64,000 bases of DNA from a virus (lineage: Duplodnaviria > Caudoviricetes): the IMG/VR virus record IMGVR_UViG_3300037484_000333, positions 1 through 64,000 of that record; one strand, given 5' to 3'. Under the pieces are notes generated by a model. It ran no database searches and was not told where the DNA came from. It saw only the letters and a program-made list of their open reading frames with translations. A program made the position numbers and the translations under genes. This document shows, piece after piece, positions 18,111 through 57,265 of this stretch (within the stretch, counting starts at the first letter, position 1; each line of letters starts with the position of its first letter).

Positions 18111-21100
18111 TTGCATATAAGGTTAACCACAGCCGGTGGACGCCTTCTAGCAAAGCTAGGCTGCACTGACCAATTAGTCTCGGCCGGTGGTGTTCTATAT
18201 GATTCACTACCTCTTAGCACTGTCATAGCTCCATCAGCTAGCACATTTTGGCGGGCTTGGTTCGGGCCTGCAGGTGAAGAAGGTAAGATACAGGTTGATG
18301 GTATTACCAACCTTCTAACTGGTACTTACCCTGACAAGACTACCAAGACCATGCCTGCAGGGTTCCGTAACATCCACGGTTGCGAGTACGCATCAGATGT
18401 CGATAGAGTTTTCTTGTGCACCCGTCTTGGAGCTACTGGCAGCACTGGCCCGTACCGCCTAATACGGATAAACCCCGATGACCTCGATGACTACGTTTAC
18501 TATGAGGCGTCTTCTGCAAACTACTGGCGTGCTGACTATCTAATGATAGTGGGTACCAGGGTCTTTGTGTTTTACCAAGACGCAGCCAACCCCACTAAAC
18601 TATTGATTGACGAGTTCGATACTGAGGATGATGCACAACCCCTAACCAAGGTCGCCACTCACGACCTTGGTACAACTTACGGTAGTGCTTGGCAGGCCGA
18701 TACCGACAACACTTATATGTATATCGGAACTGATGCTACCGAACTTTCCGGAACCGGTCACTACATTGTAAAGGTGCAGATCAGTGATATGACGGTGGTA
18801 GATAATGCCCAACTGACTGGTACTTGGGATGCCCACCGAGGAACCGGTAGTGTGCTCTATGACTCGGAAACCGGCTCTGTGTTTATGGGGTGTCAAGGTG
18901 GCGCATTTATCCATAAGGTTAGTGCATCAGACCTGTCTAGTGAAGTAGTCCAGGGATACCCGTTAAAACACCTTAATGGGGAAACGAAGTCCAGTGAACT
19001 TATATCAACTACTGGGTATATATACCTAACTCTAGAGGGTGGGGCAAGTGTCCCCAACTACGTCGAGGGGCACGTTCTCAAAATTAGCAAGACTGACTTG
19101 GCTGACTATGAGGTAATACAGGCCGGGTCTGCGTCTAACAAGTCGGGATGGGTAGGTTTGCCAGAGCCTGACGGTGACTATATCTGGGTCGGATGGGCTG
19201 AAGGGGAGTTTGTACGAATTAAGGTGTCCGATGGTAGCCAGCAACACTTCTGGTTTCCTGAAACCCAGGTAGCAGAAAGTTGTTTTGCAGGCAGCAGAAA
19301 CAAGTGGATACTGGGTACTTGGGACGACCCATGCAAGATAGTTAGAGTAGTCAACCATGTATCGGCAGATAATAGCCAACTCACCAGCTTAGCTCCACGA
19401 TCCTCATGGGTTCCTGTTAGGCTATTCACTCAAAAGGACGGAACTATTACCGCCCTAGAGGCCTATACCGATGGTAGCAATAGTCTCGGCACTGGAGTGA
19501 ACCTTAAAGGGAATACTGCTACCGACTATACAGAGCCCACCACTACCGAGCTTAACACCACTAATTATCCGACTTTAGCTGGAGCCACCGTTGACGCATT
19601 TGGTTGGACCTCCGGCTCACCTAAGTCCATTACAGGGTCGGCAACTGAAGCCGGTGATATCGGTGACTTCTTAGTCTTGCAAGTTAGCCTGGACTCTAAT
19701 GCAGCTGGATGTACTACACCAACTGATACTCTAACCCCCGTTTATACTACCGGCGGAAGCGATATAACCAAGACCGTAACTCTATATACAGAGTCAGAGA
19801 AGATCATATCAGCTGTCACGTCCACTGCTTCAGCTGCTGCCTTGTTGACCTCTGTCGCTGATAATATAGAAGTGCTTGCGGAAGTAGCTACTGTTAATGC
19901 AGCTGCCCTATCTCTAATAGTCGGTATTAGTAAAGCTATAGTTGTACCTGTTTCTGAGGCCGGTGCCACTGCCATTGCTCCTTCGACCTCAGCTGGAGTT
20001 ATCATACTACCAGATGTTGAAGAAGCCGACGCCGTAGTATTCTCGCCTCTGATCTCAATAGGCTTGGCTAGGGCTCCTCCGGCAATTGAGGCTGCAGCCG
20101 TTGCTAATATACCATCTATCTCCACAGAAGCTATCATTAGTGTACCTACTTCTACTGCGTCGTCAGAAGCGCCACCTCCAGAAATTCTGACTTCCGTAAC
20201 CTTTGCTATAGCGTTTGCAGAGGCCCCAATCCCCATCGTTACAACAGGAGCTACAATCACGTCTCCAGTGGCAGAAGCATCTGTAGAGACTTTAGCACCT
20301 GCTATCTCTACTGGAGCCGATGTCATACTTGAGCAACCAGCTATTTCGACAGCTGAGGCCCCTATTCCCACAATTTCGGCTAGTACTACCATATCCTCTC
20401 CAACCGCCACGGCCAGCTCCTCCATTGGTACTACCATCATCGGCATTGGTAAAGCTATTGCACCACCAGTTGCCACATCTAACGGTTCTGCAATTCCGCC
20501 CCTGAGGACTTATGGGGTCTACGTTCAAATCGACGGCGAGTCCAACGACGCCTATGAGTACGAGTTTAACGGCGGAGTCAACGTTGATAACTTCGAGATA
20601 TTAGTCGTATCAGACGCAAGTGCTGAAGACAGGTACTGGGGCGGCCTCCGATTTACTGGTGGAACTTGGCCTTCCTATGGCTCCACCATCACAGCAGCCC
20701 GTATCTCCATTCACATACCGTCTATAGTTGGAGACGACCCTAACTGTGACATCTATGCAGAGGCTTCGGCCAACCCGTCGGCATTCACCACCGCCACTAA
20801 TAACATCAGTGGCCGGACAAAGACCTCAGCCTCAGCTGAGTGGATAGCCAACGGTCTAGGAACAGGTTGGAAAAACTCTCCATCGCTAGTAACAATCATA
20901 CAGGAGCTTGTGGACTCTTACAACATTGAGTCTATAGCCCTAATAATACAACCTAATACTGACGTTAGTAAGTCCCTGATCATAGACGCTTGGGATGAAT
21001 CCTCTCACACCCTTGGGGCCATCCTACACCTGGAGTGGGAGGAGCCCAGCCTCGGTGTAACCTACGCAACCATAGCTACGTCTAGTGCGGCAGCCATAGC

Positions 21101-40949: not shown

Positions 40950-41116
40950 CTTTTTCCCATATCCACCCCCTCCCAAAAGCAGCCACATTCTTGTCCGCAC
41001 CAGGAGGTTGGGTGGAGGAGGGCTTGACGCAGGACGGCCTCTTCCCGTCGGACGTTCTCAGGGCTGATGTTCGTTTTGATCAACAAGTCCAGAGCTTCCT
41101 CCGGTGTCATGCTCAT
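40916..41116 (-). CDS. Hypothetical protein
   Basis: Overlaps the end of the helicase gene. Confidence 0.4.
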   Translation of the reverse strand: MSMTPEEALDLLIKTNISPENVRREEAVLRQALLHPTSWCGQECGCFWEGVDMGKRITLDRPHYEV

Positions 41117-42572
41117 GGCTCACCTCCCATACTACTGTATCTCTCAACCATGTTGGCAACCTCCTAAGCAGTCTACCTGCACTACCATCCAGTATGTACC
41201 CATCACAATGGTCGTCCATACTCCTCATTCCACGCCCCAACCCTTGCGCCAAGGTTATGACAGTTTGTTCCTCATACCAGTTCCTGTTATCCTTAAACCT
41301 GGCGGCTACTACGGCGTCGCCAAGGTCAGGATAAGGTGCCTTAACCCATATGATGAAACGGCACTCATCACCTGGTAGGTCTACACCACTGGTAGCTGAT
41401 GGGCTAACCATAATGCGACGGTCACCACGCTTGAAGGAGCGTAGGGCAGCCAGCCTGTTCTTACCACCAGGCCTGTGAGTCACCATCTCGTGGGCGTAGC
41501 GACTGGAGTTGACCAACTGCCTGCTCAGTTCAAATTTATGTGTGTGTATAAGTCCTCTCTCTAATGGGTGTTGAGATATGATAGCGTCTACAGCCGATAC
41601 AACCTTAGGAAACTCTTCCTTGATGTTCTTGTAGTTCAGCTTAGCCGCTGGCCGGTAGTATATGGGAGCTTGCTCTTTCCTATCAAAGTCCATAGGTATG
41701 TCGATATAGTCTATGTCTTCTAGGTCGCCCAGTACTGAGGCCGGTGGCGGTGTAGCCGACATTATGACTATCTTAGTAGTGCCCTGGATCATAGCGTCAA
41801 ACTGTTCGTGCGCCCATATGGGTCGTACCAGATTGTTCTGCCTTATCCAACCCTTAGACCATGCTACCCTAACACAGTCATCCCGCAGTCTCCTCAACAG
41901 TTTGGGAGCTGTATCGTCTAGGAAGGCGTCGGGGTCATCGGCAGAGAACGAGCTTATCTGGTGCTCTAGGTGTAGTGCCACCTGCCTAAGCCATGTCCTC
42001 AGTTCTTCATCAGTATTGGGAGGTTCTCCAAATGTAGATAGTTTGGACAGGTCTAAAGTGGCACTTCCTACTAAGAAGCTCTCCAAGACGTGCGCTTCGT
42101 CGCATATCAACAGAGTGGGAGGTGGTGCAAACCCTCCAGCCCGCTTCTCGTAGATATAGTAGGCGTAGTTTGTGAGAGTCAGAGGCTGATGCCTTAGGGC
42201 TTCTCTCTGGATAAAGTAATCGCAACCACTTATTTGTTTGCACTCGTAACCTCCCGCACAGGGGGCTTGGCTAACTCGTAGGTGGTCGTACCCGTCTAGT
42301 TTGCACTTGAAGGCTGGGCGACCGTATGCTACAAACCCATCACTGGCTGCAGAGTACTGGCGTTGGAGCCCATAGTCAGCAGTCAGGATGACAGTCGGTA
42401 CCTCCAGTAGCCCATAAGTTGCGAGGGCGACGACTGATTTGCCAACCCCCGTTTGACCGTCAACCCATACAAACTTTGATGGGCTATCTGCTATGGCTTG
42501 GGCAACTTCCAGTTGGGAGGGTCTCCATTCGTCGTCGGACCCAACCTTTATCCCCAGGTCGCTAGGCTTCAC
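41058..42572 (-). CDS. DinG/Rad3-like SF2 helicase
   Basis: QTGVGKS, DEAH, MSAT, GVDLPGD, QGLGRGMR motifs. Confidence 0.85.
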   Translation of the reverse strand: MKPSDLGIKVGSDDEWRPSQLEVAQAIADSPSKFVWVDGQTGVGKSVVALATYGLLEVPTVILTADYGLQRQYSAASDGFVAYGRPAFKCKLDGYDHLRVSQAPCAGGYECKQISGCDYFIQREALRHQPLTLTNYAYYIYEKRAGGFAPPPTLLICDEAHVLESFLVGSATLDLSKLSTFGEPPNTDEELRTWLRQVALHLEHQISSFSADDPDAFLDDTAPKLLRRLRDDCVRVAWSKGWIRQNNLVRPIWAHEQFDAMIQGTTKIVIMSATPPPASVLGDLEDIDYIDIPMDFDRKEQAPIYYRPAAKLNYKNIKEEFPKVVSAVDAIISQHPLERGLIHTHKFELSRQLVNSSRYAHEMVTHRPGGKNRLAALRSFKRGDRRIMVSPSATSGVDLPGDECRFIIWVKAPYPDLGDAVVAARFKDNRNWYEEQTVITLAQGLGRGMRSMDDHCDGYILDGSAGRLLRRLPTWLRDTVVWEVSHEHDTGGSSGLVDQNEHQP

Positions 42573-44538: not shown

Positions 44539-45102
44539 CTAGCAACGCGAGTTGCCGCAACCCCAGCATTTTAGGCAACCTTCTTCGTGGACCATAATAG
44601 ACCCACACTCTGGACAACACACACCGGAGCTATTACGTATCGGCACGATCAGTGTCTCTATAGTGGTTTCACCTGGTGGAGGTGGGGGAGAATCGAACTC
44701 CCCGTCCTGAAGAGGGTTAGCCCCGTACTCCGAGACATCTTCTTCAGTCTTCCTTTCACCCCCAAGAAACCTTCGCTCAAGCCACTGAGCAATGTAGTCT
44801 AGTATACTAGTCGCCTTCGGAATATCAGGGTTACTAGTCAATCCAGCAGGGTCATACCGAGTCTGTTTGAACTTCCGCGTTATGTCTTCCAGTGGGACGT
44901 GGTACTGTAAGGCTATCGAAACCATGATAGCGAAGGCGTCCACCAACCCGCTGACTGTTGACCCCTGCTTACTTACAAATACAAAGAGTTCTCCTGGTGT
45001 GCCATCCTCGAACAACCCTACTATAAGGTAGCCTGACTGGTCTGCTATTTTGAACTTATGTGTAACACTGTTTCTGTCAGCCGGTAGCCTCTTCCTCTTC
45101 GT
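44539..45102 (-). CDS. Stand-alone class II RNR (NrdJ) C-terminal TSCPD-like domain plus Zn ribbon, apparent ACG start
   Basis: RLPADRNSVTHKF...GLFEDGTPGELF...SKQGST...SIALQY...SILDYI; C-terminal CPECG...CLKC..C; in-frame TGA at 45109-45111 and SD GAGGAG. Confidence 0.8.
   Translation of the reverse strand, partial: TKRKRLPADRNSVTHKFKIADQSGYLIVGLFEDGTPGELFVFVSKQGSTVSGLVDAFAIMVSIALQYHVPLEDITRKFKQTRYDPAGLTSNPDIPKATSILDYIAQWLERRFLGGERKTEEDVSEYGANPLQDGEFDSPPPPPGETTIETLIVPIRNSSGVCCPECGSIMVHEEGCLKCWGCGNSRC
44674..44763 (-). ncRNA. tmRNA tRNA-like-domain mimic embedded in a CDS
   Basis: GGGGGTG/CACCTCC acceptor stem with G3:U70, ACCA end, GGAC, GGGGAG-TTCGATT-CTCCCC T-arm, TGAAGA/TCTTCA helix. Confidence 0.65.
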
Positions 45103-45301
45103 CTGTAGTCAACTCCTCATCAACTGATATAAAGACGGTACCAGTTTCCAACCCTATCTCTATGTCTTCAGGCCAGGCCCACACCACTGCCAAGTCGCCT
45201 TGGTCCATGTAGGTTCTAACTAGGGTACCTCTAGCCCCATAGTAGAAGAATATCTTGGCCCAAGATGATATAAGTATTAGCAAATACTCTATACCCATCA
45301 T
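45077..45301 (-). CDS. Small protein with YYGARG motif
   Basis: Motif shared with the adjacent ORF. Confidence 0.5.
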   Translation of the reverse strand: MMGIEYLLILISSWAKIFFYYGARGTLVRTYMDQGDLAVVWAWPEDIEIGLETGTVFISVDEELTTDEEEEATG

Positions 45302-45495
45302 ACTAACAACCTATCGCCGGAATAATAAAGGGTTGGGTGCGTAGAGTACAATGGTACGCAATACCAGACTGTAACCCGCCCACCATCGGACTGGATGGTA
45401 GTATAACCTCCAGCATGGGACATATTCCTGATACGTCCTCTGGCCCCATAGTACTTGAACATGGCTGTCATACCTGATACAGTTTTCAACCCCAT
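45298..45495 (-). CDS. Small protein with YYGARG motif
   Basis: Motif shared with the adjacent ORF. Confidence 0.5.
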   Translation of the reverse strand: MGLKTVSGMTAMFKYYGARGRIRNMSHAGGYTTIQSDGGRVTVWYCVPLYSTHPTLYYSGDRLLV

Positions 45496-47483
45496 GTTTG
45501 ACCTACCTTCACCTTGAATCGTATGGGCAGCATGAACTCAACAGTCTTGGCTACCTCGTGTACCGCTTCTTCTAATTCACGCACCAACTTCATAGGACAG
45601 TAGTAGTCTAGCGAATCGTGAATCTGGTCGAAAAAATGCGCCCCTAGCTGTTGGGCATACTTGTCCATACGCACCATGCAGACCTTTATTATATCACCAG
45701 ACGCAGTGCTCTGCACTACTCCATTAGCTAGTTCCTTGCGGGCATGGCTCCTGGTACGCGGGTCGTTAGACTGTATGGCCTCAAAGTACATACGGTGGCC
45801 TAACCAGGACTCTGCATACCCACGTTCCATGCCCTCAGCTATGATACCTTCTTGCCACACCCTCAGTACGTGGAGCTTACCTCTTACTATCTGTAGCCTT
45901 CTTCTAGCCTCTTGCAGCTCCACATTGTCACGTTTAGCGCACTCCCTCTCACTCAACCCATATATACCTGCAAAGTTATACACCTTGCCGGTCTTACGTT
46001 GTGTAGGTGAGGGATAATCAGTATTAAAGATAAGTCCACCCGTCATACTGTGGAAGTCTTCACCAGCTAGCCAAGCCTCGACCATTATAGGGTCCCAGCT
46101 AAGGCCAGCCATGACTACCATCTCTAGCTGGACGGCGTCAGCACTTACTATGGCATACCCTTCTGGTGGGACGACCGCGAGCTTTTGCTCCGCCGTGAAG
46201 TTTTGGGTGTTTGGACCTTCACTAGCGACTCTATTGGTGATAGCCCAAGTTGTCTTGAAGCTAGGATGTAAGCGAGAGTCTGGATAAAGATGGTCGAGGA
46301 TGACTCTCCACAGAGTCTTCGACGATCCGGCTTCTTTAATAGACAGTACCCTGTCAACCAGATCGCTAGTTCCTTTAAGGTGGGCAAGGGCTTTGGACCC
46401 TGTAGAGCGCGCACCTGCTGGCGTAAAGACTCTAGCTCTGAGTCCAAGATCATCAAACAGTAGTTTCTCAAGTTGCTTGGGGGATCGGTGATGGACGGGG
46501 AAGGTGGCTGCAAGGTGTCGTTCAAGTCTATCCAACCCTTCTATTTGGGCCTCAACAAACTGTCGGTCTATCAGTATACCGTGCTTCTCAGCCTTTGTCA
46601 ATATAGATTGGACTGGGAGATCAATATTGAGGTACCTATCAGCTGACCCAGTCTCTAGCATCTTGGGCCATGTGTACTCCAGGTGTAGCCGACGTGTGGC
46701 GTCTGCATCCATACAGGCGTATGGGTACAAGCTGTCAAGGTCGTCCGCTATTACCTCTGTCCACTCCCGCATCTCCAAGCCAAGGTGTTCCCTGGCCAGT
46801 CGCTTCAGACCACTGCTTCCACGATAGTGACCGAGCAAGAAGGCTTGGAGCTTGGTATCATGGTAAGTGAGACTGTCGGGGTCCCATCCAAGGAATAGCT
46901 GATCGAAAGGTGCGTTGTGAAATACAAGAGTCCGGTGTCGGAGCGCGGACCATAACTCCTCAGTCTTGAAGCAGTCGACTGGAATGTAACAGCCAGTCCC
47001 TGGAGCCACAGAGAGAGAGACTCCAAGGAGTCCGTCACTGACGGGCTTAAGTCCAGTAGTTTCTGTGTCGATTCCGACAAGTTCTTCACTCCCTAAATAC
47101 TCCACAACCTCAGCAAGGGTAGTGACGAGGCGGTAGTCGCCTGTGGTGATTGGTCCTGGAGGATTTATTGGTACACCTATAGGACCACTAACTACCGCCT
47201 CGTCAGGCTGGACCTTACACCCTGCCTTCTTAACTATTACCTCTCCTGGGTGGGGTGAGGGCTTAATCCAAATAGTCTTCTTATCAGCGATGGCCAAGAC
47301 CGAAAGTACCGCCGAGCCCTTAGTGTCTTGTTGGGCATACTCGTAGATACCCTCAACCCCACCCAGTTCACGAAGAGAGGCCGAAATTAATACGTTGACA
47401 TACTGGGAGGCTAGGTCCTCAGACAGGTTGAAGTGTGTAGAGGCCCAGTCTTTAACCGACAGTACGTCAACGAAAAGAAACAG
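45486..47483 (-). CDS. polA: Family A DNA polymerase with 3'-5' exonuclease, probable CTG start
   Basis: IDTETTG exo I, ADAVQLE motif A, KVYNFAGIYG motif B, QIHDSL motif C; frame open 62 codons above TTG 47297 to a CTG 7 nt after AGGAG. Confidence 0.9.
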   Translation of the reverse strand: MFLFVDVLSVKDWASTHFNLSEDLASQYVNVLISASLRELGGVEGIYEYAQQDTKGSAVLSVLAIADKKTIWIKPSPHPGEVIVKKAGCKVQPDEAVVSGPIGVPINPPGPITTGDYRLVTTLAEVVEYLGSEELVGIDTETTGLKPVSDGLLGVSLSVAPGTGCYIPVDCFKTEELWSALRHRTLVFHNAPFDQLFLGWDPDSLTYHDTKLQAFLLGHYRGSSGLKRLAREHLGLEMREWTEVIADDLDSLYPYACMDADATRRLHLEYTWPKMLETGSADRYLNIDLPVQSILTKAEKHGILIDRQFVEAQIEGLDRLERHLAATFPVHHRSPKQLEKLLFDDLGLRARVFTPAGARSTGSKALAHLKGTSDLVDRVLSIKEAGSSKTLWRVILDHLYPDSRLHPSFKTTWAITNRVASEGPNTQNFTAEQKLAVVPPEGYAIVSADAVQLEMVVMAGLSWDPIMVEAWLAGEDFHSMTGGLIFNTDYPSPTQRKTGKVYNFAGIYGLSERECAKRDNVELQEARRRLQIVRGKLHVLRVWQEGIIAEGMERGYAESWLGHRMYFEAIQSNDPRTRSHARKELANGVVQSTASGDIIKVCMVRMDKYAQQLGAHFFDQIHDSLDYYCPMKLVRELEEAVHEVAKTVEFMLPIRFKVKVGQTWG

Positions 47484-48864: not shown

Positions 48865-49305
48865 TTAATCGCCTCCGATAATGCGCCTAGTGACGATGAC
48901 GGTGGCTCCATCAGGTGCCTGGTCGTCGAGGTAGGCCTGGCGACTGTTCAGGCGGAGGTCACCATCGGCGTCGAGACCAGCGGCTTCCAAGGCGTCGCCG
49001 ACAGTACCGTTATCCGGAATGGCGAACTCCCTGACTTCTCCACCGACCTCTCCAACCTTCACGACCTTCTGCCCACCACGGGGCTGGGTCATGATCAGCA
49101 CAGAGTCGCCGTTGCTCAGGGGGTGCCGGTCGCTACTGATGCGCTCTTGCTGCCCCGCGTGGGTGACCCGTACCTCATCGTTGCCCCAAGATTCGCTGGC
49201 AGCCGAGAACAGGTCAGCCACCACAGAACCGGGCAATAGGGTATAGTTCTTCCGCTCACCACCGATGCGAGCGATAGCCACGTCGATCGTCGTCTCGTTG
49301 ACCAC
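48865..49305 (-). CDS. Tandem di-ubiquitin-like (beta-grasp) modifier precursor
   Basis: Two ~70-aa ThiS/MoaD-like units ending TQPRGG and TRRIIGG-D; SD AAAGGAG before GTG 49305. Confidence 0.85.
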   Translation of the reverse strand: MVNETTIDVAIARIGGERKNYTLLPGSVVADLFSAASESWGNDEVRVTHAGQQERISSDRHPLSNGDSVLIMTQPRGGQKVVKVGEVGGEVREFAIPDNGTVGDALEAAGLDADGDLRLNSRQAYLDDQAPDGATVIVTRRIIGGD

Positions 49306-49353
49306 GATCCACTCCTTTCTGGTACTTTGCAGTACCAACTAAACTAACAACTA

Positions 49354-49851
49354 CTATTGATGGCAGTTACAACTGCAATTGAAGCCATCTACACAATGGC
49401 AGGGGCAGTCGCAGGTATCGTCGTCGTAGCACCCACACCTCTCACAGGTGGGCTCCTCTTCCTCCTCCTCTTCATCCTCGTCGTCAGTTGGGTTGGGAAG
49501 TTCTCCACGAGGTTCCAGACCATCCGACCGACCACCACCTACTGGGAAGCTGGCTGAGTCTGCGTCAGTTCGATTCCACACCCTCAGCACGTCAAGATGA
49601 CGCAGTAGGGTACCAGTACAGACGTACCGCCCACCCACACTGAGACGGTCACCACTGTATAGGATGCCCAGCCTCTCCAGTATAGTGCTAATCCAGGCGT
49701 CCCGCCAAGGCATGACCAACTCTATAGTGGGCTGGTTCAGGCGCGCCACGTAGACTGTGATCATCCTATCGTCGTTGGGCCTATCGTTAGGCCTGTACTG
49801 CATGGCTGGACGGGCTGCAGTATAAGGTGCAGGATCATTCGTCATTACCAA
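49354..49851 (-). CDS. Ubl-like domain fused to an acidic tract and a Cys10/His2 tail
   Basis: ITVYVARL...ISTILERLG...DRLSV...DVLRVW resembles the Ubl units; then PVGGG, poly-E and CERCGC...CSCNCHQ. Confidence 0.6.
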   Translation of the reverse strand: MVMTNDPAPYTAARPAMQYRPNDRPNDDRMITVYVARLNQPTIELVMPWRDAWISTILERLGILYSGDRLSVGGRYVCTGTLLRHLDVLRVWNRTDADSASFPVGGGRSDGLEPRGELPNPTDDEDEEEEEEEPTCERCGCYDDDTCDCPCHCVDGFNCSCNCHQ

Positions 49852-50515
49852 CTCCCCATGAGTTGACTATGCTGCGAAGGGTCTTGAGATTCTGTATGTA
49901 CTCTCCCCAACACTCCTCCTTCCTAGCGAACGCGGCTATCCTGCTGGTGATAACACCTCCAATCACAAAGGGACAGTAGATCACAGACGAGTTGGTACAT
50001 GGCCTACCGTCCTTACCCTGGTCACCATATAGTGAGCCTTCATACTTGTCTACGTGGTCTGGGTCACAGGGATTGACTGCGTAGACCCTTAAGTCTTCCC
50101 CATCCATACGCCCATCGACGTACAGGGGGTAGTTAGGGTCATACTTCACAGCCTGCCAGATTTCACTCCTGACAGCCATTGAGTCAACCCCAGAGATGAT
50201 GACCCCAGGTCGCAGTTTGGTATCAGGGAACCTCCCATCAACTGCCAGTATGTTGACTGATGATAGATGAGCCAGCTCACGCGCCAACAGAACTACCTTG
50301 AGTTCGCCGACTCCATCTGGTGGGTACAAGACCTGGTTAGGTACGTTGTGGGCCTCTACCCTGTCGAAGTCGATGACCATTAGGTCCTTTACACCCATCT
50401 TGGCGACTGCTAAGGCGGTAGGCGAACCTATGCCACCTGCCCCGACTATGGTGACTGGAAAGTCGAGTAGGTCAACCTGGACTACGTCTTGTTGCCTCGA
50501 ATAGTCTATTGCCAA
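49835..50515 (-). CDS. E1/ThiF-MoeB family adenylating enzyme
   Basis: VGAGGIG, DFDRVEAHNVPNQ, SGVDS, DGRM, candidate catalytic Cys in RPCT. Confidence 0.9.
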   Translation of the reverse strand: MAIDYSRQQDVVQVDLLDFPVTIVGAGGIGSPTALAVAKMGVKDLMVIDFDRVEAHNVPNQVLYPPDGVGELKVVLLARELAHLSSVNILAVDGRFPDTKLRPGVIISGVDSMAVRSEIWQAVKYDPNYPLYVDGRMDGEDLRVYAVNPCDPDHVDKYEGSLYGDQGKDGRPCTNSSVIYCPFVIGGVITSRIAAFARKEECWGEYIQNLKTLRSIVNSWGVGNDE

Positions 50516-50525
50516 GTACTACCTC

Positions 50526-51344
50526 CTAATGTTTGTCAAGGAAGGTCTGAAACGGGTCGTCACTGTCACGTCGCTTACCCTTCTTGCCTTTGTTACGTGG
50601 GTTACCCCGCTTGTAGGCATCGGCCTTGCTAGTTGACCTATCTATGCGGATGACCTCTCCATCCACACAGTTAGCGGCCACTTTGGCTAGCGCAGCCTCC
50701 ACGTCTCTGGCCTTACGGGTATTAGGGTGGAGGCCAGAGCTGTAGTCGTCCTTAGATACGTTAGCCGAAATACTCTTCCCAATCGGGCCAAAAGGGGTTT
50801 GAGGTATTACCACCTTCCGCTCCCTGACCTTCTGCTTGACCTCCTCGGCACACTCCTCGTCCACATCCATTGCGGGGTATAGAACAGTCAGGTCAAACTC
50901 TTCCTCGACGGCAGACGTACCGCCCAGGCATTTGGGTAGCGTGGCTATGCCGTATACCGATCCCTTCCAGTCGTTAGCCTTATTCCCTACCAGGTAGGCG
51001 AACCAAGGAACAGTCTGCCCTACCATTTGTTCCATAGTGGTACGGTCTGTCTGGCTCCAGAAGCAGGCAGTGTGGGCGTGGCTATGCCACCAAAGGCGCA
51101 GCTCAGTAGGGTCACCGCCTTCCTCCATCCACTGCTGGATGTACTCGGCTATTGGAGTGGTATCTAGCTCAGTACCACCTGCACTACACTCCTGGTCAAA
51201 TAGGACGACCTTGGTTATTACTAACCTTCCGTCTATCTCCTTTACGTGGCCGAGGCCAGATACTTCCCCAGTGGCGTGCTTGATGTAGGATCGGAGCCTA
51301 GAGTATGGCTCCAACTCTATGTATACGTTGGCTTTGGTTGCCAA
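50526..51344 (-). CDS. JAB/MPN metalloprotease (deubiquitinase-like)
   Basis: GEVSG Glu; WWHSH...FWSQTD JAMM motif. Confidence 0.85.
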   Translation of the reverse strand: MATKANVYIELEPYSRLRSYIKHATGEVSGLGHVKEIDGRLVITKVVLFDQECSAGGTELDTTPIAEYIQQWMEEGGDPTELRLWWHSHAHTACFWSQTDRTTMEQMVGQTVPWFAYLVGNKANDWKGSVYGIATLPKCLGGTSAVEEEFDLTVLYPAMDVDEECAEEVKQKVRERKVVIPQTPFGPIGKSISANVSKDDYSSGLHPNTRKARDVEAALAKVAANCVDGEVIRIDRSTSKADAYKRGNPRNKGKKGKRRDSDDPFQTFLDKH

Positions 51345-51355
51345 AACTTCGCCTC

Positions 51356-52804
51356 CTATCGAGTGACAGTAGTTACTGTAGTTCCCGCGTCTCCATTATG
51401 ATATACAAACCCTGCTACTCGTTCAATGTCATCCCAACGCAGTGTCGTCCCAGTGTTGGGATCAACCGCCTCCGCAGGTTCGAGAGCAACTAACTCTTCC
51501 AACGCCTCGTCGTAGTCCATGACTGTTGGGGCTTTCCCTTCCTTCTTAGGTTCCACTCCCACAGGATTCCAGTGTGCGCGCAACCTAGTTATGTATATAC
51601 CGTCATGTTCCTTCTCGTTGATGTGGTTGAGGAACTTGACCAGGACTGCCAAGGCGGTAGGAAAGTCCCCCGCGCCTATCAGCTTGGTTACTGGAGTCTG
51701 TAGGTTGCCGAGACAGACGTATGCCCCACCATCATAGACGTGAGGGTGTTGAATGTCGTTGTAGAAGCCTTCACTCGTACCCTTCATCACTTCCTTGGCC
51801 CGCTGGTTTATTATCCTGATGCGGCCATTGGTGCCAATAGTAATACGGAAGGCTCCAAGGTCCCACGTATCGCCGTCAGCCTCAACTATGATAGTGTGCG
51901 TTTCAGCCACCACTGCTGAACCAGCAATGACTACGTTCTTTATACCCTCAACAGCCTTGAGACGGACAAACTCGTCCTTGAGTTCTTCTTCCTTCTTGTC
52001 TGGCTCCTCGTAAGCCCTGAGCTGGCGGATATACTTGGCCTCGTCTTGCATCCTTCCAACTAGGGCTTCTTGGTAGGAAACTATGTCATTACGGGTAGAC
52101 TGCAACTGGCCAACCAAATTCTGTTTCTGAGCCTCATACCCCTTAGTACGAAGTTCGATGTAGAGATTCTCATAGTCAGGAGGTGGAGGTGGAACAGCCA
52201 CTGCCCTGTTTGACGGTAGCTGCCTGAGTAGTTCATGCCACCACCAACCACTAATGCCAACCGCAAATAGGTACAGTACTCTACTATCAATGTAGGCAGC
52301 TACCACCTCACCATCTACCTTGATTAGGTGATAGTCATCGCCCCAGTTCTCAGGGTGGGTATAGGTAGGAGTTGTAGGCCTTCTAACGTTGTCCCGAAGC
52401 CTGTTAACACCCAATCCGGAGTCGACCATCACAGTCCAGCCCCTATGGGTGGACATGACCCCTCTAAAGTCGCTCCTATAGACGTTGAACGGACGTCCAA
52501 AGTATGGAGCCCACAAACCCAGCCAACGACGTATTGTTGGTAGGCTATACCCAACCCACCCTCGACCATGAGCCTGTACTGCATCTGGTATTGTTAAGGC
52601 TACTATACTACGGTTAGTGTTGTATTCAGGCCAATACTCAAGGAGACGCAGACCTAACGACCTCCGAACTGCTGCCAAGTGCCTGTAACTAACGGCAATC
52701 CCTGTGTTGGCCCCTGCCGTCGCAGTCGGTCTATCAGACGGATCACAAGGTATGTCAGGAAGGTCTGCAAGAGTGAAGCCCTCAAGGTAGTAGTAATCAG
52801 CCAT
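51356..52804 (-). CDS. Prokaryotic E2-like conjugating domain with N-terminal domain and coiled coil
   Basis: C-terminal HPHVYDGGAYVCLGN with candidate catalytic Cys (51713-51715); SD GAGGAGG before ATG 52804. Confidence 0.75.
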   Translation of the reverse strand: MADYYYLEGFTLADLPDIPCDPSDRPTATAGANTGIAVSYRHLAAVRRSLGLRLLEYWPEYNTNRSIVALTIPDAVQAHGRGWVGYSLPTIRRWLGLWAPYFGRPFNVYRSDFRGVMSTHRGWTVMVDSGLGVNRLRDNVRRPTTPTYTHPENWGDDYHLIKVDGEVVAAYIDSRVLYLFAVGISGWWWHELLRQLPSNRAVAVPPPPPDYENLYIELRTKGYEAQKQNLVGQLQSTRNDIVSYQEALVGRMQDEAKYIRQLRAYEEPDKKEEELKDEFVRLKAVEGIKNVVIAGSAVVAETHTIIVEADGDTWDLGAFRITIGTNGRIRIINQRAKEVMKGTSEGFYNDIQHPHVYDGGAYVCLGNLQTPVTKLIGAGDFPTALAVLVKFLNHINEKEHDGIYITRLRAHWNPVGVEPKKEGKAPTVMDYDEALEELVALEPAEAVDPNTGTTLRWDDIERVAGFVYHNGDAGTTVTTVTR

Positions 52805-53096
52805 CAGTTTCCTCCTCGGAGTCCCAAACCATGAGGATTTCACCATTACTGGAGTGGCTATCCCACAGTTCGTCGGCAGACTTAACGAACTCGTCGGCTT
52901 CGGACGGGTCCTCCAAGCTGATAGCCATGTAGCAGTCTGAGACCCACTGGACGTAGTCTTCCTCGTTCATTAAGATTACCATCTTGGGAGATAGTGGTTC
53001 TAGGAATAACTCTTGCAGGGCTACCCTCAGCTCGTCACAGATCAACATGGAGTCTGAAACCTGCCGCCATATGATTGAGGCTGATGCTACGTTCAC
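52797..53096 (-). CDS. Acidic hypothetical protein
   Basis: Contiguous ORF. Confidence 0.45.
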   Translation of the reverse strand: MNVASASIIWRQVSDSMLICDELRVALQELFLEPLSPKMVILMNEEDYVQWVSDCYMAISLEDPSEADEFVKSADELWDSHSSNGEILMVWDSEEETDG

Positions 53097-55315: not shown

Positions 55316-56977
55316 CTACTCCTTACTGAAGTCTGAGATCAACTGTGGTGTGGCTGTATCAAACCCTACCACATCCAACATACCAGCGTCATTGGGGTCT
55401 GCCAGTGTGAAGCCGTTGGATGTCATAGCCACAACCACCAGCTTAGCCGGTATCCCAGTCTTCTTGCGGTACAGTTGGAGTGCCTGGAATGGGTGGAGGT
55501 CGCCAGCCCAGGTCTCGTCATCAGTGTAGATCACGAAGGTGTCAACCTCAATACCTTCCTTAGCTGCCCACACCATGGGCAACGCACAGTCAGTTCCACC
55601 AAAGTTCTGGTCACTGGTCTTCTTCATGGCTGATACCAAGGTATCTTTGGCTGTGATGCCGAGGTTCTTGAAGGTTGTAGAGAACCCCATAGTGTAGTAG
55701 TTGGGTTCCGTCCTAGCGGTTACTAATGCCATAGCGGTCGCACCACGTGCTGGTGTCAGACTTGGTATGCCTGCTATTTCACCCCAAGCCATAGAGCCTG
55801 ACACGTCCAGGGCCAGCAATGTACGCTTACCCGTAGGCTCCACATTCCCAAAGGCTAGGTAGAACGCATGGTCTAGGGCGTCTACTATCTGAGGTATAGG
55901 CTTCCACTCCAGCTTCCCGCGCTCACCATGACCTTGGCTGTAAGTACCTAGCGCGGCTAACACAGCTACCGGGTGGATGCGTGCGGCCTTAATAGCCTCT
56001 TGGTTGGTGAGTCGGTCAACCACTATCTTCGCGTCTTCAGACATTGGCTTGAGACAACCATTGGCTGTCATGCGGCCAAGGTTACGAAGAGTGGCCGTCA
56101 TTGGCAGGTTGGGTAGAAGGGCTGACCATACTGCTGGGTGCTTGAGTTCCTCAGTTGGGATCATCTCCCAGGTTACTACCTTGGAGTGGGCGTTGATGAG
56201 CATCTTGGTCGCCGCTTCACCCTTGACCTGTTGCAAGGCCTCAAAGGCTATGATAACCTCAGGCCACTCACTGCCCCACACTTCCTTGTATGTGCTGACC
56301 ACCCCCTTACGGTCAACCGTCCGCAGGCCATACGCTATGCTATCATCCAGGTGTCTGCACGTGACCCAACGATACAATGCGTTGTAGTTGGCCATAGGGG
56401 TAGAAGGGTGAGCAAGACGCAGCAAGTCTCTGTGAGACCACCCACCACGCTGCTGATACTTGCATAGCTGGTAGGCTAGGTCATTGGGGTTATGCATACC
56501 ATACCAGTGTTGGATAGCCTTACGCAGTACGCTACCCCAACCCCTGAGGTTCTTGCAACACTCAGCGAACTGGAAGAGGTGAGTACCTATACGGCAAACG
56601 TGAGGGAGAGCTTCAGAGGCGGCACGCTTGGTTGGAAGGTCACCGAAGCTGATGCACATGGCGAGTGCGAAGATAGCCGGGTCGTTCTTAGGTGCTCGAC
56701 CTGACTGGCTGATCTCAACTATACGGTTGACAGTACGGGGTCCATCAGCCTTGATACAACGCAGTACGGCCTCGGCATTCTCAATTGTGAGCTTTTGGGC
56801 TGATGCGTAGTAGGTTCCACCTTCGGAACCCAGAATGAGGAAGCGGTCTAGCCTGATCCAGTCATCAACGGGGAAGACGTAGCCTCCAGCATCGTTGACG
56901 ACCTGGTCAGTGCGACCTGGTACGGGGGTTGATTGAGGGGTTTGCTTGATGGAGTAGTGCTCGGAGTATAGAGACAA
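55316..56977 (-). CDS. rsr: Ro60/TROVE RNA-binding protein (Rsr-like) with C-terminal vWA
   Basis: N.AGGYVF..DDW.RL.RFLILGSEGGTYY; KYQQRGGWSHRDLLRLAHP; DVSGSM MIDAS; GGTDC; DDETW; VVGFD. Confidence 0.95.
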   Translation of the reverse strand: MSLYSEHYSIKQTPQSTPVPGRTDQVVNDAGGYVFPVDDWIRLDRFLILGSEGGTYYASAQKLTIENAEAVLRCIKADGPRTVNRIVEISQSGRAPKNDPAIFALAMCISFGDLPTKRAASEALPHVCRIGTHLFQFAECCKNLRGWGSVLRKAIQHWYGMHNPNDLAYQLCKYQQRGGWSHRDLLRLAHPSTPMANYNALYRWVTCRHLDDSIAYGLRTVDRKGVVSTYKEVWGSEWPEVIIAFEALQQVKGEAATKMLINAHSKVVTWEMIPTEELKHPAVWSALLPNLPMTATLRNLGRMTANGCLKPMSEDAKIVVDRLTNQEAIKAARIHPVAVLAALGTYSQGHGERGKLEWKPIPQIVDALDHAFYLAFGNVEPTGKRTLLALDVSGSMAWGEIAGIPSLTPARGATAMALVTARTEPNYYTMGFSTTFKNLGITAKDTLVSAMKKTSDQNFGGTDCALPMVWAAKEGIEVDTFVIYTDDETWAGDLHPFQALQLYRKKTGIPAKLVVVAMTSNGFTLADPNDAGMLDVVGFDTATPQLISDFSKE

Positions 56978-57180: not shown

Positions 57181-57182
57181 TA

Positions 57183-57253
57183 ATACGGGCAAGTAATGTT
57201 AGAGGGCGTTTATCCTAAAGAAGTATAGATAACCCTCTAACTTCGGCCCGTAT
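57183..57253 (-). ncRNA. Y RNA-like 2
   Basis: ATACGGGC-CG-AAG-TTAGAGGG-TTATCT...CCCTCTAA-CATTA-CTT-GCCCGTAT. Confidence 0.75.
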
Positions 57254-57265
57254 GTTGTTTGCTAA

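What the first reader, a model, noticed from the sequence alone, without database searches (positions are those of the whole stretch)
44674..44763. Miniature tmRNA (tRNA-like domain only) hidden in frame inside a protein-coding gene
Seen on the - strand: GGGGGTG AAAGGAAGAC TGAAGA...TCTTCA GGAC GGGGAG TTCGATT CTCCCC CACCTCC ACCA. It has both tmRNA ends with a perfect 7-bp acceptor stem including the alanyl identity pair G3:U70, an encoded CCA, a D-loop-like GG..GAC, the GGAC linker and a P2-like helix. The mRNA-like domain is replaced by about 27 nt. The element is exactly 90 nt (30 codons) and occupies the variable linker of the NrdJ-fragment gene (GGERK...QDGEFDSPPPP). Deviations from tmRNA: 6-bp T-stem and AAGAC for UCGAC. 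Inference: an SmpB/EF-Tu/AlaRS decoy that could block trans-translation, an RNase P/Z processing signal that cuts the mRNA, or a relic ssrA attP (no integrase in the window).
Basis: partly seen in the sequence, partly recalled or inferred. Interest (0 to 1): 0.85.

Follow-up and report, generated by a model that had tools for sequence, protein, structure and literature searches.

The report
Mini tmRNA nested inside phage gene
An uncultured phage carries a 90-base cut-down copy of the bacterial ribosome-rescue RNA (tmRNA: only its alanine-accepting tRNA-like end) written in frame inside the floppy linker of a protein gene, so the same DNA seems to serve as protein code and as a small RNA that probably interferes with the host's rescue of stalled ribosomes.

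Summary
Window 44674-44763 (- strand) matches the Rfam tmRNA model end to end, with the ~300-nt message part missing: 48.3 bits (cut-off 47), above the published phage DS6A example (43.2) and above any tRNA tested (33.6 or less). Both ends derive from a real tmRNA gene.

The 90 nt are exactly 30 in-frame codons. They lie in a predicted disordered linker between a conserved TSCPD domain and a conserved zinc ribbon.

Eighty-two homologous NrdJ/TSCPD loci lack the element. The one close homologue (P0001) keeps the peptide that the element's 3' half encodes, but its DNA could not be fetched. Synonymous codon choice fits the RNA fold: 2 of 200,000 resamplings keep all 20 core pairs.

The 72.6-kb phage has no integrase, no SmpB and no reductase catalytic domain, so the attP reading fails.

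Best reading (about 0.58): a working tmRNA that keeps only the tRNA-like domain (TLD-only). It would be cut from the mRNA by RNase P and act as a decoy for SmpB, tmRNA's protein partner. The main rival is an inert captured relic (about 0.27).

Known precedents are the DS6A TLD-only tmRNA and tRNA-Sec nested in selB. This scan has also noted phage mini-tmRNAs and in-frame nested tRNAs on other DNA. I rate it a new variant of a known kind. Expression is untested.

The parts
44674..44763 (-). 90-nt TLD-only mini-tmRNA, equal to codons 85-114 of the 158-aa ORF
   Evidence: RF00023 48.3 bits, model 1-374; fold; in frame
44757..44763 (-). acceptor stem, 5' strand GGGGGUG (G3 of the G3:U pair)
   Evidence: first 13 nt identical to the 5' end of the tmRNA on L147
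44748..44756 (-). shortened D-loop-like segment AAAGGAAGA, with GG; the usual UUC before GAC is absent
   Evidence: cmscan alignment
44741..44747 (-). P2-like helix, 5' strand CUGAAGA (preceded by the conserved GA of GAC)
44714..44740 (-). 27-nt cap that replaces the ~300-nt mRNA-like and pseudoknot part; small 6-bp hairpin; no credible tag frame
44707..44713 (-). P2-like helix, 3' strand UCUUCAG (its G57 starts the conserved GGAC; GAC = 44704-44706 follows)
44685..44703 (-). T arm: 6-bp stem GGGGAG/CUCCCC and loop UUCGAUU
   Evidence: the same arm occurs in full-length tmRNA-like genes on L212, and with one loop difference on L219
44674..44684 (-). acceptor 3' strand CACCUCC plus discriminator A and encoded CCA
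44539..45102 (-). host gene: TSCPD domain, linker, CxxC...CxxC zinc ribbon. The ORF listing starts it at TTG 45015; the frame is open from 45108, and ACG 45102 (SD AGGAG at 45113-45117) aligns with Met1 of P0001
44632..44763 (-). linker (residues 85-128 of the 158-aa ORF), predicted disordered
   Evidence: AlphaFold2 pLDDT <50 for residues 88-126, against 84-89 in the flanking domains
44542..44631 (-). C-terminal zinc ribbon, conserved with NrdJ C-termini, downstream of the element and in frame with it
   Evidence: alignment A1; model

Best explanation
The 90 nt are a tmRNA gene reduced to its tRNA-like domain (TLD), nested in frame in the disordered linker of a phage TSCPD/zinc-ribbon gene, and kept by selection both as linker code and as RNA. 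Shown here: its descent from tmRNA, its intact fold and alanine identity marks, its in-frame position between two conserved protein domains, and codon choice that fits the RNA. Inferred, not shown: the gene is transcribed with the replication module (PolA to helicase, all on the - strand). On transcripts that fold before ribosomes pass, host RNase P cuts 5' of G1 and 3' exonucleases trim to the encoded CCA. The released ~90-nt RNA binds SmpB and is probably charged by AlaRS. Like the DS6A TLD-only tmRNA, it then competes with host tmRNA, so stalled ribosomes on phage messages are not sent to the tag-and-degrade pathway, or are rescued with a single alanine and no tag. Each maturation event cuts the host mRNA and leaves a non-stop TSCPD fragment, so RNA and full-length protein are made at each other's expense.
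For: The element matches RF00023 over the cut-off, end to end. It scores above the published DS6A TLD (43.2 bits) and above tRNAs (33.6 or less). All 20 core pairs, G3:U, ACCA and the T loop are intact, and the fold persists in context. With the peptide held fixed, resampling synonymous codons by phage codon usage keeps all 20 core pairs in 2 of 200,000 trials (mean 13.7, sd 1.5), so the signal lies in the nucleotides and not in the peptide. The only close homologue, P0001 (74% identity in aligned parts), has an unalignable linker interior. It keeps DGGFDSPPPPP, the translation of the T arm and acceptor 3' strand. It also reads RFL-G-V-I where the window reads RFL-G-G-E; this is what GGGGGTGA gives when shifted by one base. 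If so, the element predates the split and has stayed intact. The frame continues into a conserved zinc ribbon, and the 30 codons lie in a disordered linker. Free-standing TLD-only genes exist in other phages (L204 at 54 bits; DS6A). A DS6A-like TLD inhibits tmRNA in E. coli (PMC4131195; PMC11915505). A tRNA gene nested inside an ORF has a precedent in selC within selB (PMC8124441). The 6-bp T stem also occurs in a tagged full-length tmRNA (L219, 176 bits).
Against: There is no expression, processing, charging or SmpB-binding evidence. There is no DNA from any relative, so no compensatory change has been seen; the argument from P0001 rests on its peptide alone. The D loop is 2-4 nt shorter than in the real tmRNAs inspected and lacks the usual UUC before GAC, which may weaken SmpB binding. 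The 13-bp acceptor/T stack departs from the usual 12 bp. No promoter or terminator of its own stands out. The fold-energy z-score is only -1.7. The phage encodes no SmpB. Only one, perhaps two, examples exist.
Confidence: 0.58

Rival explanations
1. Inert relic. A mini-tmRNA or a deleted ssrA copy was captured by illegitimate recombination into a linker that tolerates any open sequence. It survives only because it is in frame and is either recent or not yet decayed. It makes no functional RNA.
For: NrdJ/TSCPD linkers are hypervariable in length and sequence and disordered, so an open 90-nt insert would be tolerated. Two of the element's three frames are open (reading). No relative's DNA shows covariation. 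The D loop is shortened. There are no transcription signals of its own.
Against: All 20 core pairs and every identity mark are intact, although 13 paired bases are third codon positions. P0001, a homologue only 74% identical, appears to share the element's two ends while the interior differs; that argues for age plus constraint. The internal deletion left a neat, closed P2 helix like that of free-standing phage TLD genes.
Confidence: 0.27
2. Processing signal acting in cis only. The tRNA-like fold recruits RNase P to cut the polycistronic mRNA. This uncouples the TSCPD domain from the zinc ribbon or tunes downstream genes, and the released RNA itself has no role.
For: Any RNase P cut here must sever the mRNA. 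The same logic was proposed for smpB/ssrA in Carsonella (PMC4131195) and for selB/selC (PMC8124441). The fold persists in mRNA context.
Against: A processing signal needs only an acceptor/T minihelix. It would not need G3:U, the GG D loop, the GAC/GGAC motif and P2, all of which are specific to tmRNA and are kept.
Confidence: 0.1
3. Relic or active attP of a phage that integrates into the host ssrA gene.
For: The 3' 34 nt are near-identical to common tmRNA 3' ends. The ssrA gene is a frequent integration site (PMC11915505).
Against: The whole 72.6-kb record, which has direct terminal repeats, holds no tyrosine integrase or serine recombinase. An attP holds only the 3' part of ssrA, whereas the 5' strand, D loop and P2 are present here. 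The extra T-stem pair would mismatch a 5-bp host T stem after a crossover.
Confidence: 0.03
4. Chance resemblance produced by a Gly/Glu/Pro-rich linker.
For: Rfam tmRNA hits above threshold are often false, including some in coding regions (PMC4131195, Table 1).
Against: E is 5e-16. The 3' end matches real tmRNA 3' ends over 32 nt and the 5' end over 13 nt. Synonymous resampling gives p about 1e-5. A grammar scan of 450 kb of homologous loci finds no other such element in an NrdJ gene.
Confidence: 0.01

Closest known systems
TLD-only ('standard, no CDS') tmRNA of Mycobacterium phage DS6A (tmRNA Website tmID 11587; Hudson, Lau and Williams 2014, PMC4131195; PMC11915505)
   Same: It is phage-borne, about 83-90 nt, with acceptor stem, D loop, short P2 and T arm, and no tag frame or pseudoknots. 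Rfam aligns it in the same way (model 1-374 with ~310 positions deleted; 43.2 bits against 48.3 here). Both lie in the replication module next to a DNA polymerase gene.
   Different: The DS6A gene is intergenic, between gp33 and gp34, and ends CACUA. The window element lies in frame inside a protein gene, ends ACCA, and has a 6-bp T stem and a shorter D loop. There is no sequence relationship beyond the tmRNA consensus.
selC (tRNA-Sec) nested inside the selB ORF of Alphaproteobacteria (Mukai 2021, PMC8124441); 23 'CDS spanning' t(m)RNA cases in 2031 genomes (PMC4131195, Table 4)
   Same: A complete tRNA-type gene lies on the same strand inside an open reading frame, so its maturation must cut the mRNA of the host gene.
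   Different: There it is a true tRNA in a C-terminal extension of a functionally linked protein. Here it is a tmRNA TLD between two conserved domains of a protein with no known link to trans-translation, and it is in a phage.
Carsonella smpB overlapping ssrA (PMC4131195)
   Same: A tmRNA gene overlaps a coding sequence, so tmRNA maturation should give a non-stop mRNA.
   Different: That is an overlap at the end of the gene only, with a full tmRNA, in a reduced endosymbiont genome.
CDS-less tmRNAs of jakobid mitochondria and Mallomonadaceae plastids (as described in PMC11915505)
   Same: A tmRNA reduced to about the TLD is thought still to help with incomplete mRNAs, together with SmpB.
   Different: Those are organellar, mostly permuted two-piece forms, free-standing genes, with a partner SmpB encoded by the cell.
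Standard one-piece bacterial tmRNA (Rfam RF00023)
   Same: The two ends are homologous: acceptor stem with G3:U70, GG D loop, GAC/GGAC, T arm, ACCA.
   Different: It lacks the resume codon, tag ORF, pseudoknots PK1-PK4 and about 270-300 nt.

Membership tests
tmRNA (RF00023), tRNA-like domain | 7-bp acceptor stem with G3:U70, discriminator A, 3' CCA | tested here: met
tmRNA (RF00023), tRNA-like domain | T arm with the UUCGAnU loop next to the acceptor 3' strand | tested here: met
   The stem is 6 bp instead of 5; the same form occurs in the tagged tmRNA on L219.
tmRNA (RF00023), tRNA-like domain | D loop with GG, then GAC pairing with GGAC at the base of P2 | tested here: met
   The loop is 2-4 nt shorter than in the 120 genomic tmRNAs inspected.
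tmRNA (RF00023), full molecule | mRNA-like domain with resume codon and tag ORF, and pseudoknots | tested here: not met
   About 300 model positions are deleted. ARAGORN finds no tag. Only 27 nt lie inside P2.
tmRNA (RF00023) | Score at or above the Rfam gathering threshold | tested here: met
   48.3 against 47 bits
tmRNA (any form) | Processed by RNase P, alanylated, bound by SmpB | not testable with these tools
Phage TLD-only (CDS-less) tmRNA, DS6A type | Phage-borne TLD of about 80-90 nt with no tag frame | tested here: met
   PMC4131195
Phage TLD-only (CDS-less) tmRNA, DS6A type | Free-standing RNA gene in an intergenic region | tested here: not met
   It lies in frame inside ORF 44539-45102. 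DS6A, L204 and L206 are intergenic.
Phage TLD-only (CDS-less) tmRNA, DS6A type | Inhibits host trans-translation | not testable with these tools
   Known only for a DS6A-like molecule in E. coli (PMC4131195, PMC11915505).
Nested t(m)RNA gene in an ORF (selC-in-selB type) | Complete RNA gene on the same strand inside an uninterrupted ORF, with conserved coding sequence on both sides or upstream | tested here: met
Nested t(m)RNA gene in an ORF (selC-in-selB type) | Nesting conserved among relatives at the DNA level | tested here: inconclusive
   Only the peptide of P0001 was available. Its DNA could not be fetched.
ssrA-type attP | Integrase gene in the element, and only the 3' part of ssrA present | tested here: not met
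   the 5' half is present
TSCPD domain protein (PF12637), for the host gene | Pfam match over the cut-off | tested here: met
   45 bits against 22.8
Class II ribonucleotide reductase NrdJ, for the host gene | Catalytic barrel (PF02867) in the same protein or genome | tested here: not met
Bacterial/phage Y RNA (YrlA type) | Ro60-binding stem formed by the 5' and 3' ends, next to the Ro60 gene | tested here: not met
   The ends form an acceptor stem with a free CCA. Ro60 is about 10.5 kb away, at 55316-56977.

The most novel reading that the evidence does not exclude
One stretch of phage DNA is under dual selection. It codes for a disordered protein linker. It is also a working, RNase P-released, alanine-accepting mini-tmRNA (tRNA-like domain only) that blocks or re-routes host trans-translation. 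Each release of the RNA destroys the mRNA of its host gene and creates a non-stop message, giving a built-in switch between protein and RNA output.
Probability: 0.45. Interest if true: 0.78.

Novelty: new variant of a known kind. Interest (0 to 1): 0.62.

Why it matters
TLD-only tmRNAs are very rare in the curated database: 9 'standard, no CDS' sequences among 97,179 (PMC11915505). Only one phage case (DS6A) has been discussed in print. A tRNA-type gene nested in a bacterial ORF was first reported in 2021.

This element combines the two. If it is processed, it would show three things:
- Phages can hide anti-trans-translation RNAs inside protein genes, where gene finders and ARAGORN miss them.
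- Disordered linkers are landing sites for RNA genes.
- Dual RNA and protein coding can be stable.

It also gives a compact natural TLD (13-bp acceptor/T stack, shortened D loop) for testing what SmpB, AlaRS, EF-Tu and RNase P really need.

Tried and rejected
- ARAGORN on the window found no tRNA or tmRNA. It also misses the published DS6A TLD and L204, so the blank says nothing.
- Close relatives were sought with the protein and with a two-sequence alignment. Viral contigs gave none close, only two at 31% without any RNA hit. Metagenome contigs gave 80 loci at 39-47%, all ordinary NrdJ C-termini. GenBank phages gave nothing above 47%. The 1.84-billion representative library yielded only P0001 with the motif.
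- A region-limited word search of the linker plus zinc ribbon found nothing.
- An exact 30-mer search in viral contigs found nothing.
- Host identification failed.
- A MAFFT alignment of six TLD-only candidates misaligned the 5' ends, so I built no covariance model.
- Promoter and terminator scans were at chance level.
- I considered and rejected attP, chance, a Y-RNA module and an NrdJ split-gene partner (see rivals and membership rows).
- The 27-nt interior was checked by eye for a tag frame and none is credible.

Full report
WHAT IS THERE

The minimum-energy fold has four parts:
- a 7-bp acceptor stem (GGGGGUG/CACCUCC, with G3 opposite U);
- a 9-nt D-loop-like stretch containing GG;
- a 7-bp P2-like helix (CUGAAGA/UCUUCAG) capped by a 27-nt stub with a small hairpin;
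- a T arm (6-bp stem GGGGAG/CUCCCC, loop UUCGAUU) abutting the acceptor 3' strand, followed by ACCA.

The same fold is the MFE and the centroid when 60 nt of mRNA are added on each side.

Rfam's tmRNA model RF00023 aligns the element from model position 1 to 374, with about 300 internal positions deleted. The score is 48.3 bits against a gathering score of 47, with E = 6e-18 for the 800-nt stretch and 5e-16 for the window. The 3' 39 nt alone score 31.9 bits, so the 5' strand, D loop and P2 add about 16 bits in spite of the deletion penalty.

IS IT MORE THAN CHANCE?

Hudson et al. (PMC4131195, Table 1) warn that most above-threshold Rfam tmRNA hits are tRNAs and that some fall in coding regions, so I calibrated the score:
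- In a 3.7-Mb bacterial genome the true tmRNA scores 194.9 bits and the best tRNA-type hit 33.6.
- The published DS6A TLD-only tmRNA scores 43.2 with the same kind of alignment.
- An intergenic 83-nt TLD on viral contig L204 scores 54.

A scan of GTDB genomes shows that the 32-nt string formed by GGAC, a 5-bp G/C T arm, CACCTCC and ACCA is the 3' end of real tmRNAs in many phyla. Those genes start GGGGGTG.... The window element equals that string plus one extra A:U pair in the T stem. Its first 13 nt equal the 5' end of the tmRNA on L147. Both ends therefore descend from a tmRNA gene.

A simple grammar scan (T arm, then 7 nt, then NCCA, with a complementary 5' strand within 60-140 nt) covered the window plus 82 homologous loci, 450 kb on both strands. 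It finds only this element, plus one tRNA-like site outside the NrdJ gene of L046.

The 6-bp T stem is a natural variant: L219 carries a 355-nt tmRNA with tag GEPELVLAA (176 bits) whose T-stem strands are the same, and L212 has the identical arm. The D loop is 2-4 nt shorter than in any of the 120 genomic tmRNAs listed. This remains a real weakness.

THE GENE AROUND IT

- ORF 44539-45015 (158 aa from TTG) has a TSCPD domain (PF12637, 45 bits) at residues 2-81. It matches phage 'ribonucleotide reductase' PHROGs only over their C-terminal ends.
- The frame is open upstream to 45108. Met1 of the closest homologue aligns with ACG 45102, 10 nt after an AGGAG.
- After the linker comes a CxxC...CxxC zinc ribbon that aligns with the C-termini of class II reductases.
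- The element is codons 85-114, in frame and without a stop.
- AlphaFold2 gives pLDDT 84-89 for the TSCPD core and for the zinc ribbon, and below 50 with no secondary structure for residues 88-126. So the 30 codons are read as part of a disordered linker.
- The record is a 72,634-bp virus contig with direct terminal repeats. It has no RNR catalytic domain, no SmpB, no tyrosine integrase and no serine recombinase.
- The neighbours on the - strand are PolA (45486-47297) upstream and a DEAD_2-type (DinG/Rad3-like) helicase (41058-42572) downstream, so this is the replication module.
- A Ro60 gene lies at 55316-56977, with a Y-RNA-type Rfam hit just upstream. The phage therefore already invests in tRNA-like RNAs. 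This element is not a Y RNA, because its ends form an acceptor stem and not a Ro-binding stem.

RELATIVES

- None of 14 aligned homologues, 224 collected proteins or 82 loci has the motif or a TLD, except P0001.
- P0001 comes from a 1,795-bp Logan contig and is 74% identical in the aligned parts. Its linker interior cannot be aligned with the window's. Even so, it keeps DGGFDSPPPPP, which is the translation of GAC, the T arm, the acceptor 3' strand and CCA.
- Directly after the conserved RFL it reads G-V-I where the window reads G-G-E. Gly-Val-Ile is what the string GGGGGTGAT gives when it starts one base earlier in the codon frame. The interior would then be 97 nt, which restores the frame at the 3' half.
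- This is inference from a peptide.
- If the inference is right, the element predates the split of two clearly diverged phages.

IS THE RNA SIGNAL JUST THE PEPTIDE?

I kept the 30-residue peptide and resampled synonymous codons according to the phage's own codon usage. Only 2 of 200,000 samples kept all 20 acceptor, P2 and T-stem pairs (mean 13.7, sd 1.5), and none also kept the T loop and ACCA. Thirteen of the 40 paired bases are third codon positions. The nucleotides, not the amino acids, carry the structure. Together with the apparent age of the insertion, this favours purifying selection on the RNA. Without a relative's DNA, a recent capture cannot be excluded.

WHAT IT MOST LIKELY DOES

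Free-standing TLD-only genes exist in other phages:
- DS6A, intergenic beside its DNA polymerase gene;
- L204;
- an 88-nt one between tRNA-Tyr and tRNA-Met in a 15-tRNA array on L205;
- candidates on L206 and L207.

[quoted passage not shown] 2009). The 2025 database paper repeats this and counts only 9 'standard, no CDS' sequences among 97,179 (PMC11915505).

I therefore commit to this mechanism. All of it is inferred.
1. The element is transcribed within the replication operon.
2. It folds on untranslated or poorly translated copies; the ACG start may help.
3. RNase P cuts 5' of G1, and exonucleases trim to the encoded CCA.
4. The RNA binds SmpB and probably AlaRS.
5. It competes with host tmRNA, sparing phage nascent chains from tagging or giving tag-less rescue.

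Release necessarily cuts the host mRNA and leaves a non-stop TSCPD fragment. [quoted passage not shown]

RIVALS

- Inert relic in a tolerant linker: 0.27.
- RNase P site acting only in cis: 0.10.
- attP: 0.03, because there is no recombinase and the 5' half is present.
- Chance: 0.01 or less.

COMPARISON AND NOVELTY

It works like, and by its anatomy belongs with, phage TLD-only tmRNAs. It fails their 'free-standing gene' feature, and it fails the full-tmRNA features (tag, pseudoknots). Its nesting resembles selC-in-selB, but here the element sits between two conserved domains, in a phage, and it is a tmRNA derivative.

Earlier notes of this scan (unchecked AI notes, on other DNA) report phage mini-tmRNAs of 110-137 nt and tRNA genes nested in frame in linkers of marine-phage genes. 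So both halves of the idea have been seen before in the scan, but I found no note of the combination. I rate it a new variant of a known kind, with interest 0.62. The rating is held down by the lack of expression data and by there being only one, perhaps two, examples.

Noticed in passing
L208:1474-1858 (+) = KF787094.1 about 19736-20120 (Achromobacter phage JWDelta); same place in MK962630/NC_054972 (Axy11): An unannotated permuted (two-piece) tmRNA gene, RF04321 95.8 bits, lies in an N4-like phage between an HNH endonuclease gene and a thioredoxin-like gene. The records annotate nothing there.
   Followed up: partly
window 55316-56977 (-) and 57182-57255 (-): A Ro60 gene (TROVE + vWA) has, just upstream, an Rfam hit to the nematode sbRNA family ceN72-3 (38.1 bits), i.e. 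a Y-RNA-type gene. Earlier notes of this scan describe four Y RNAs here.
   Followed up: partly
window 45100-45117 (-): The TSCPD frame is open 31 codons upstream of the first ATG/GTG/TTG. ACG 45102, 10 nt after AGGAG, aligns with Met1 of P0001, so a non-canonical start is likely. An ATG three codons before the in-frame TGA at 45109-45111 is also present.
   Followed up: partly
L205:4145-4232 (+), IMGVR_UViG_3300035670_000221: An 88-nt RNA with a perfect 7-bp acceptor stem (G3:U), T arm and CCA but no anticodon arm sits between tRNA-Tyr and tRNA-Met in a 15-tRNA array. It is a candidate free-standing TLD-type gene.
   Followed up: partly
L204:245-327 (+), IMGVR_UViG_3300009034_000121: An 83-nt TLD-only tmRNA scores RF00023 54 bits. 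It also has a 6-bp T stem ending AG/CU, and lies in an apparently non-coding stretch.
   Followed up: partly
L212:4982-5309 (-), complete 92-kb DTR phage IMGVR_UViG_3300050011_000047: A 328-nt tmRNA-like gene scores only 29.8 bits on RF00023. Its T arm is identical to the window element's, and ARAGORN does not call it.
   Followed up: no
L219:10347-10701 (-), IMGVR_UViG_2728369456_000001: A full tmRNA (tag GEPELVLAA, 176 bits) with a 6-bp T stem sits about 500 nt from the end of a 22-kb linear viral record. It may mark a provirus boundary at ssrA.
   Followed up: no
window 48865-52846 (-): The 496-aa ORF 51356-52846 has no Pfam or PHROG match.
   Followed up: no
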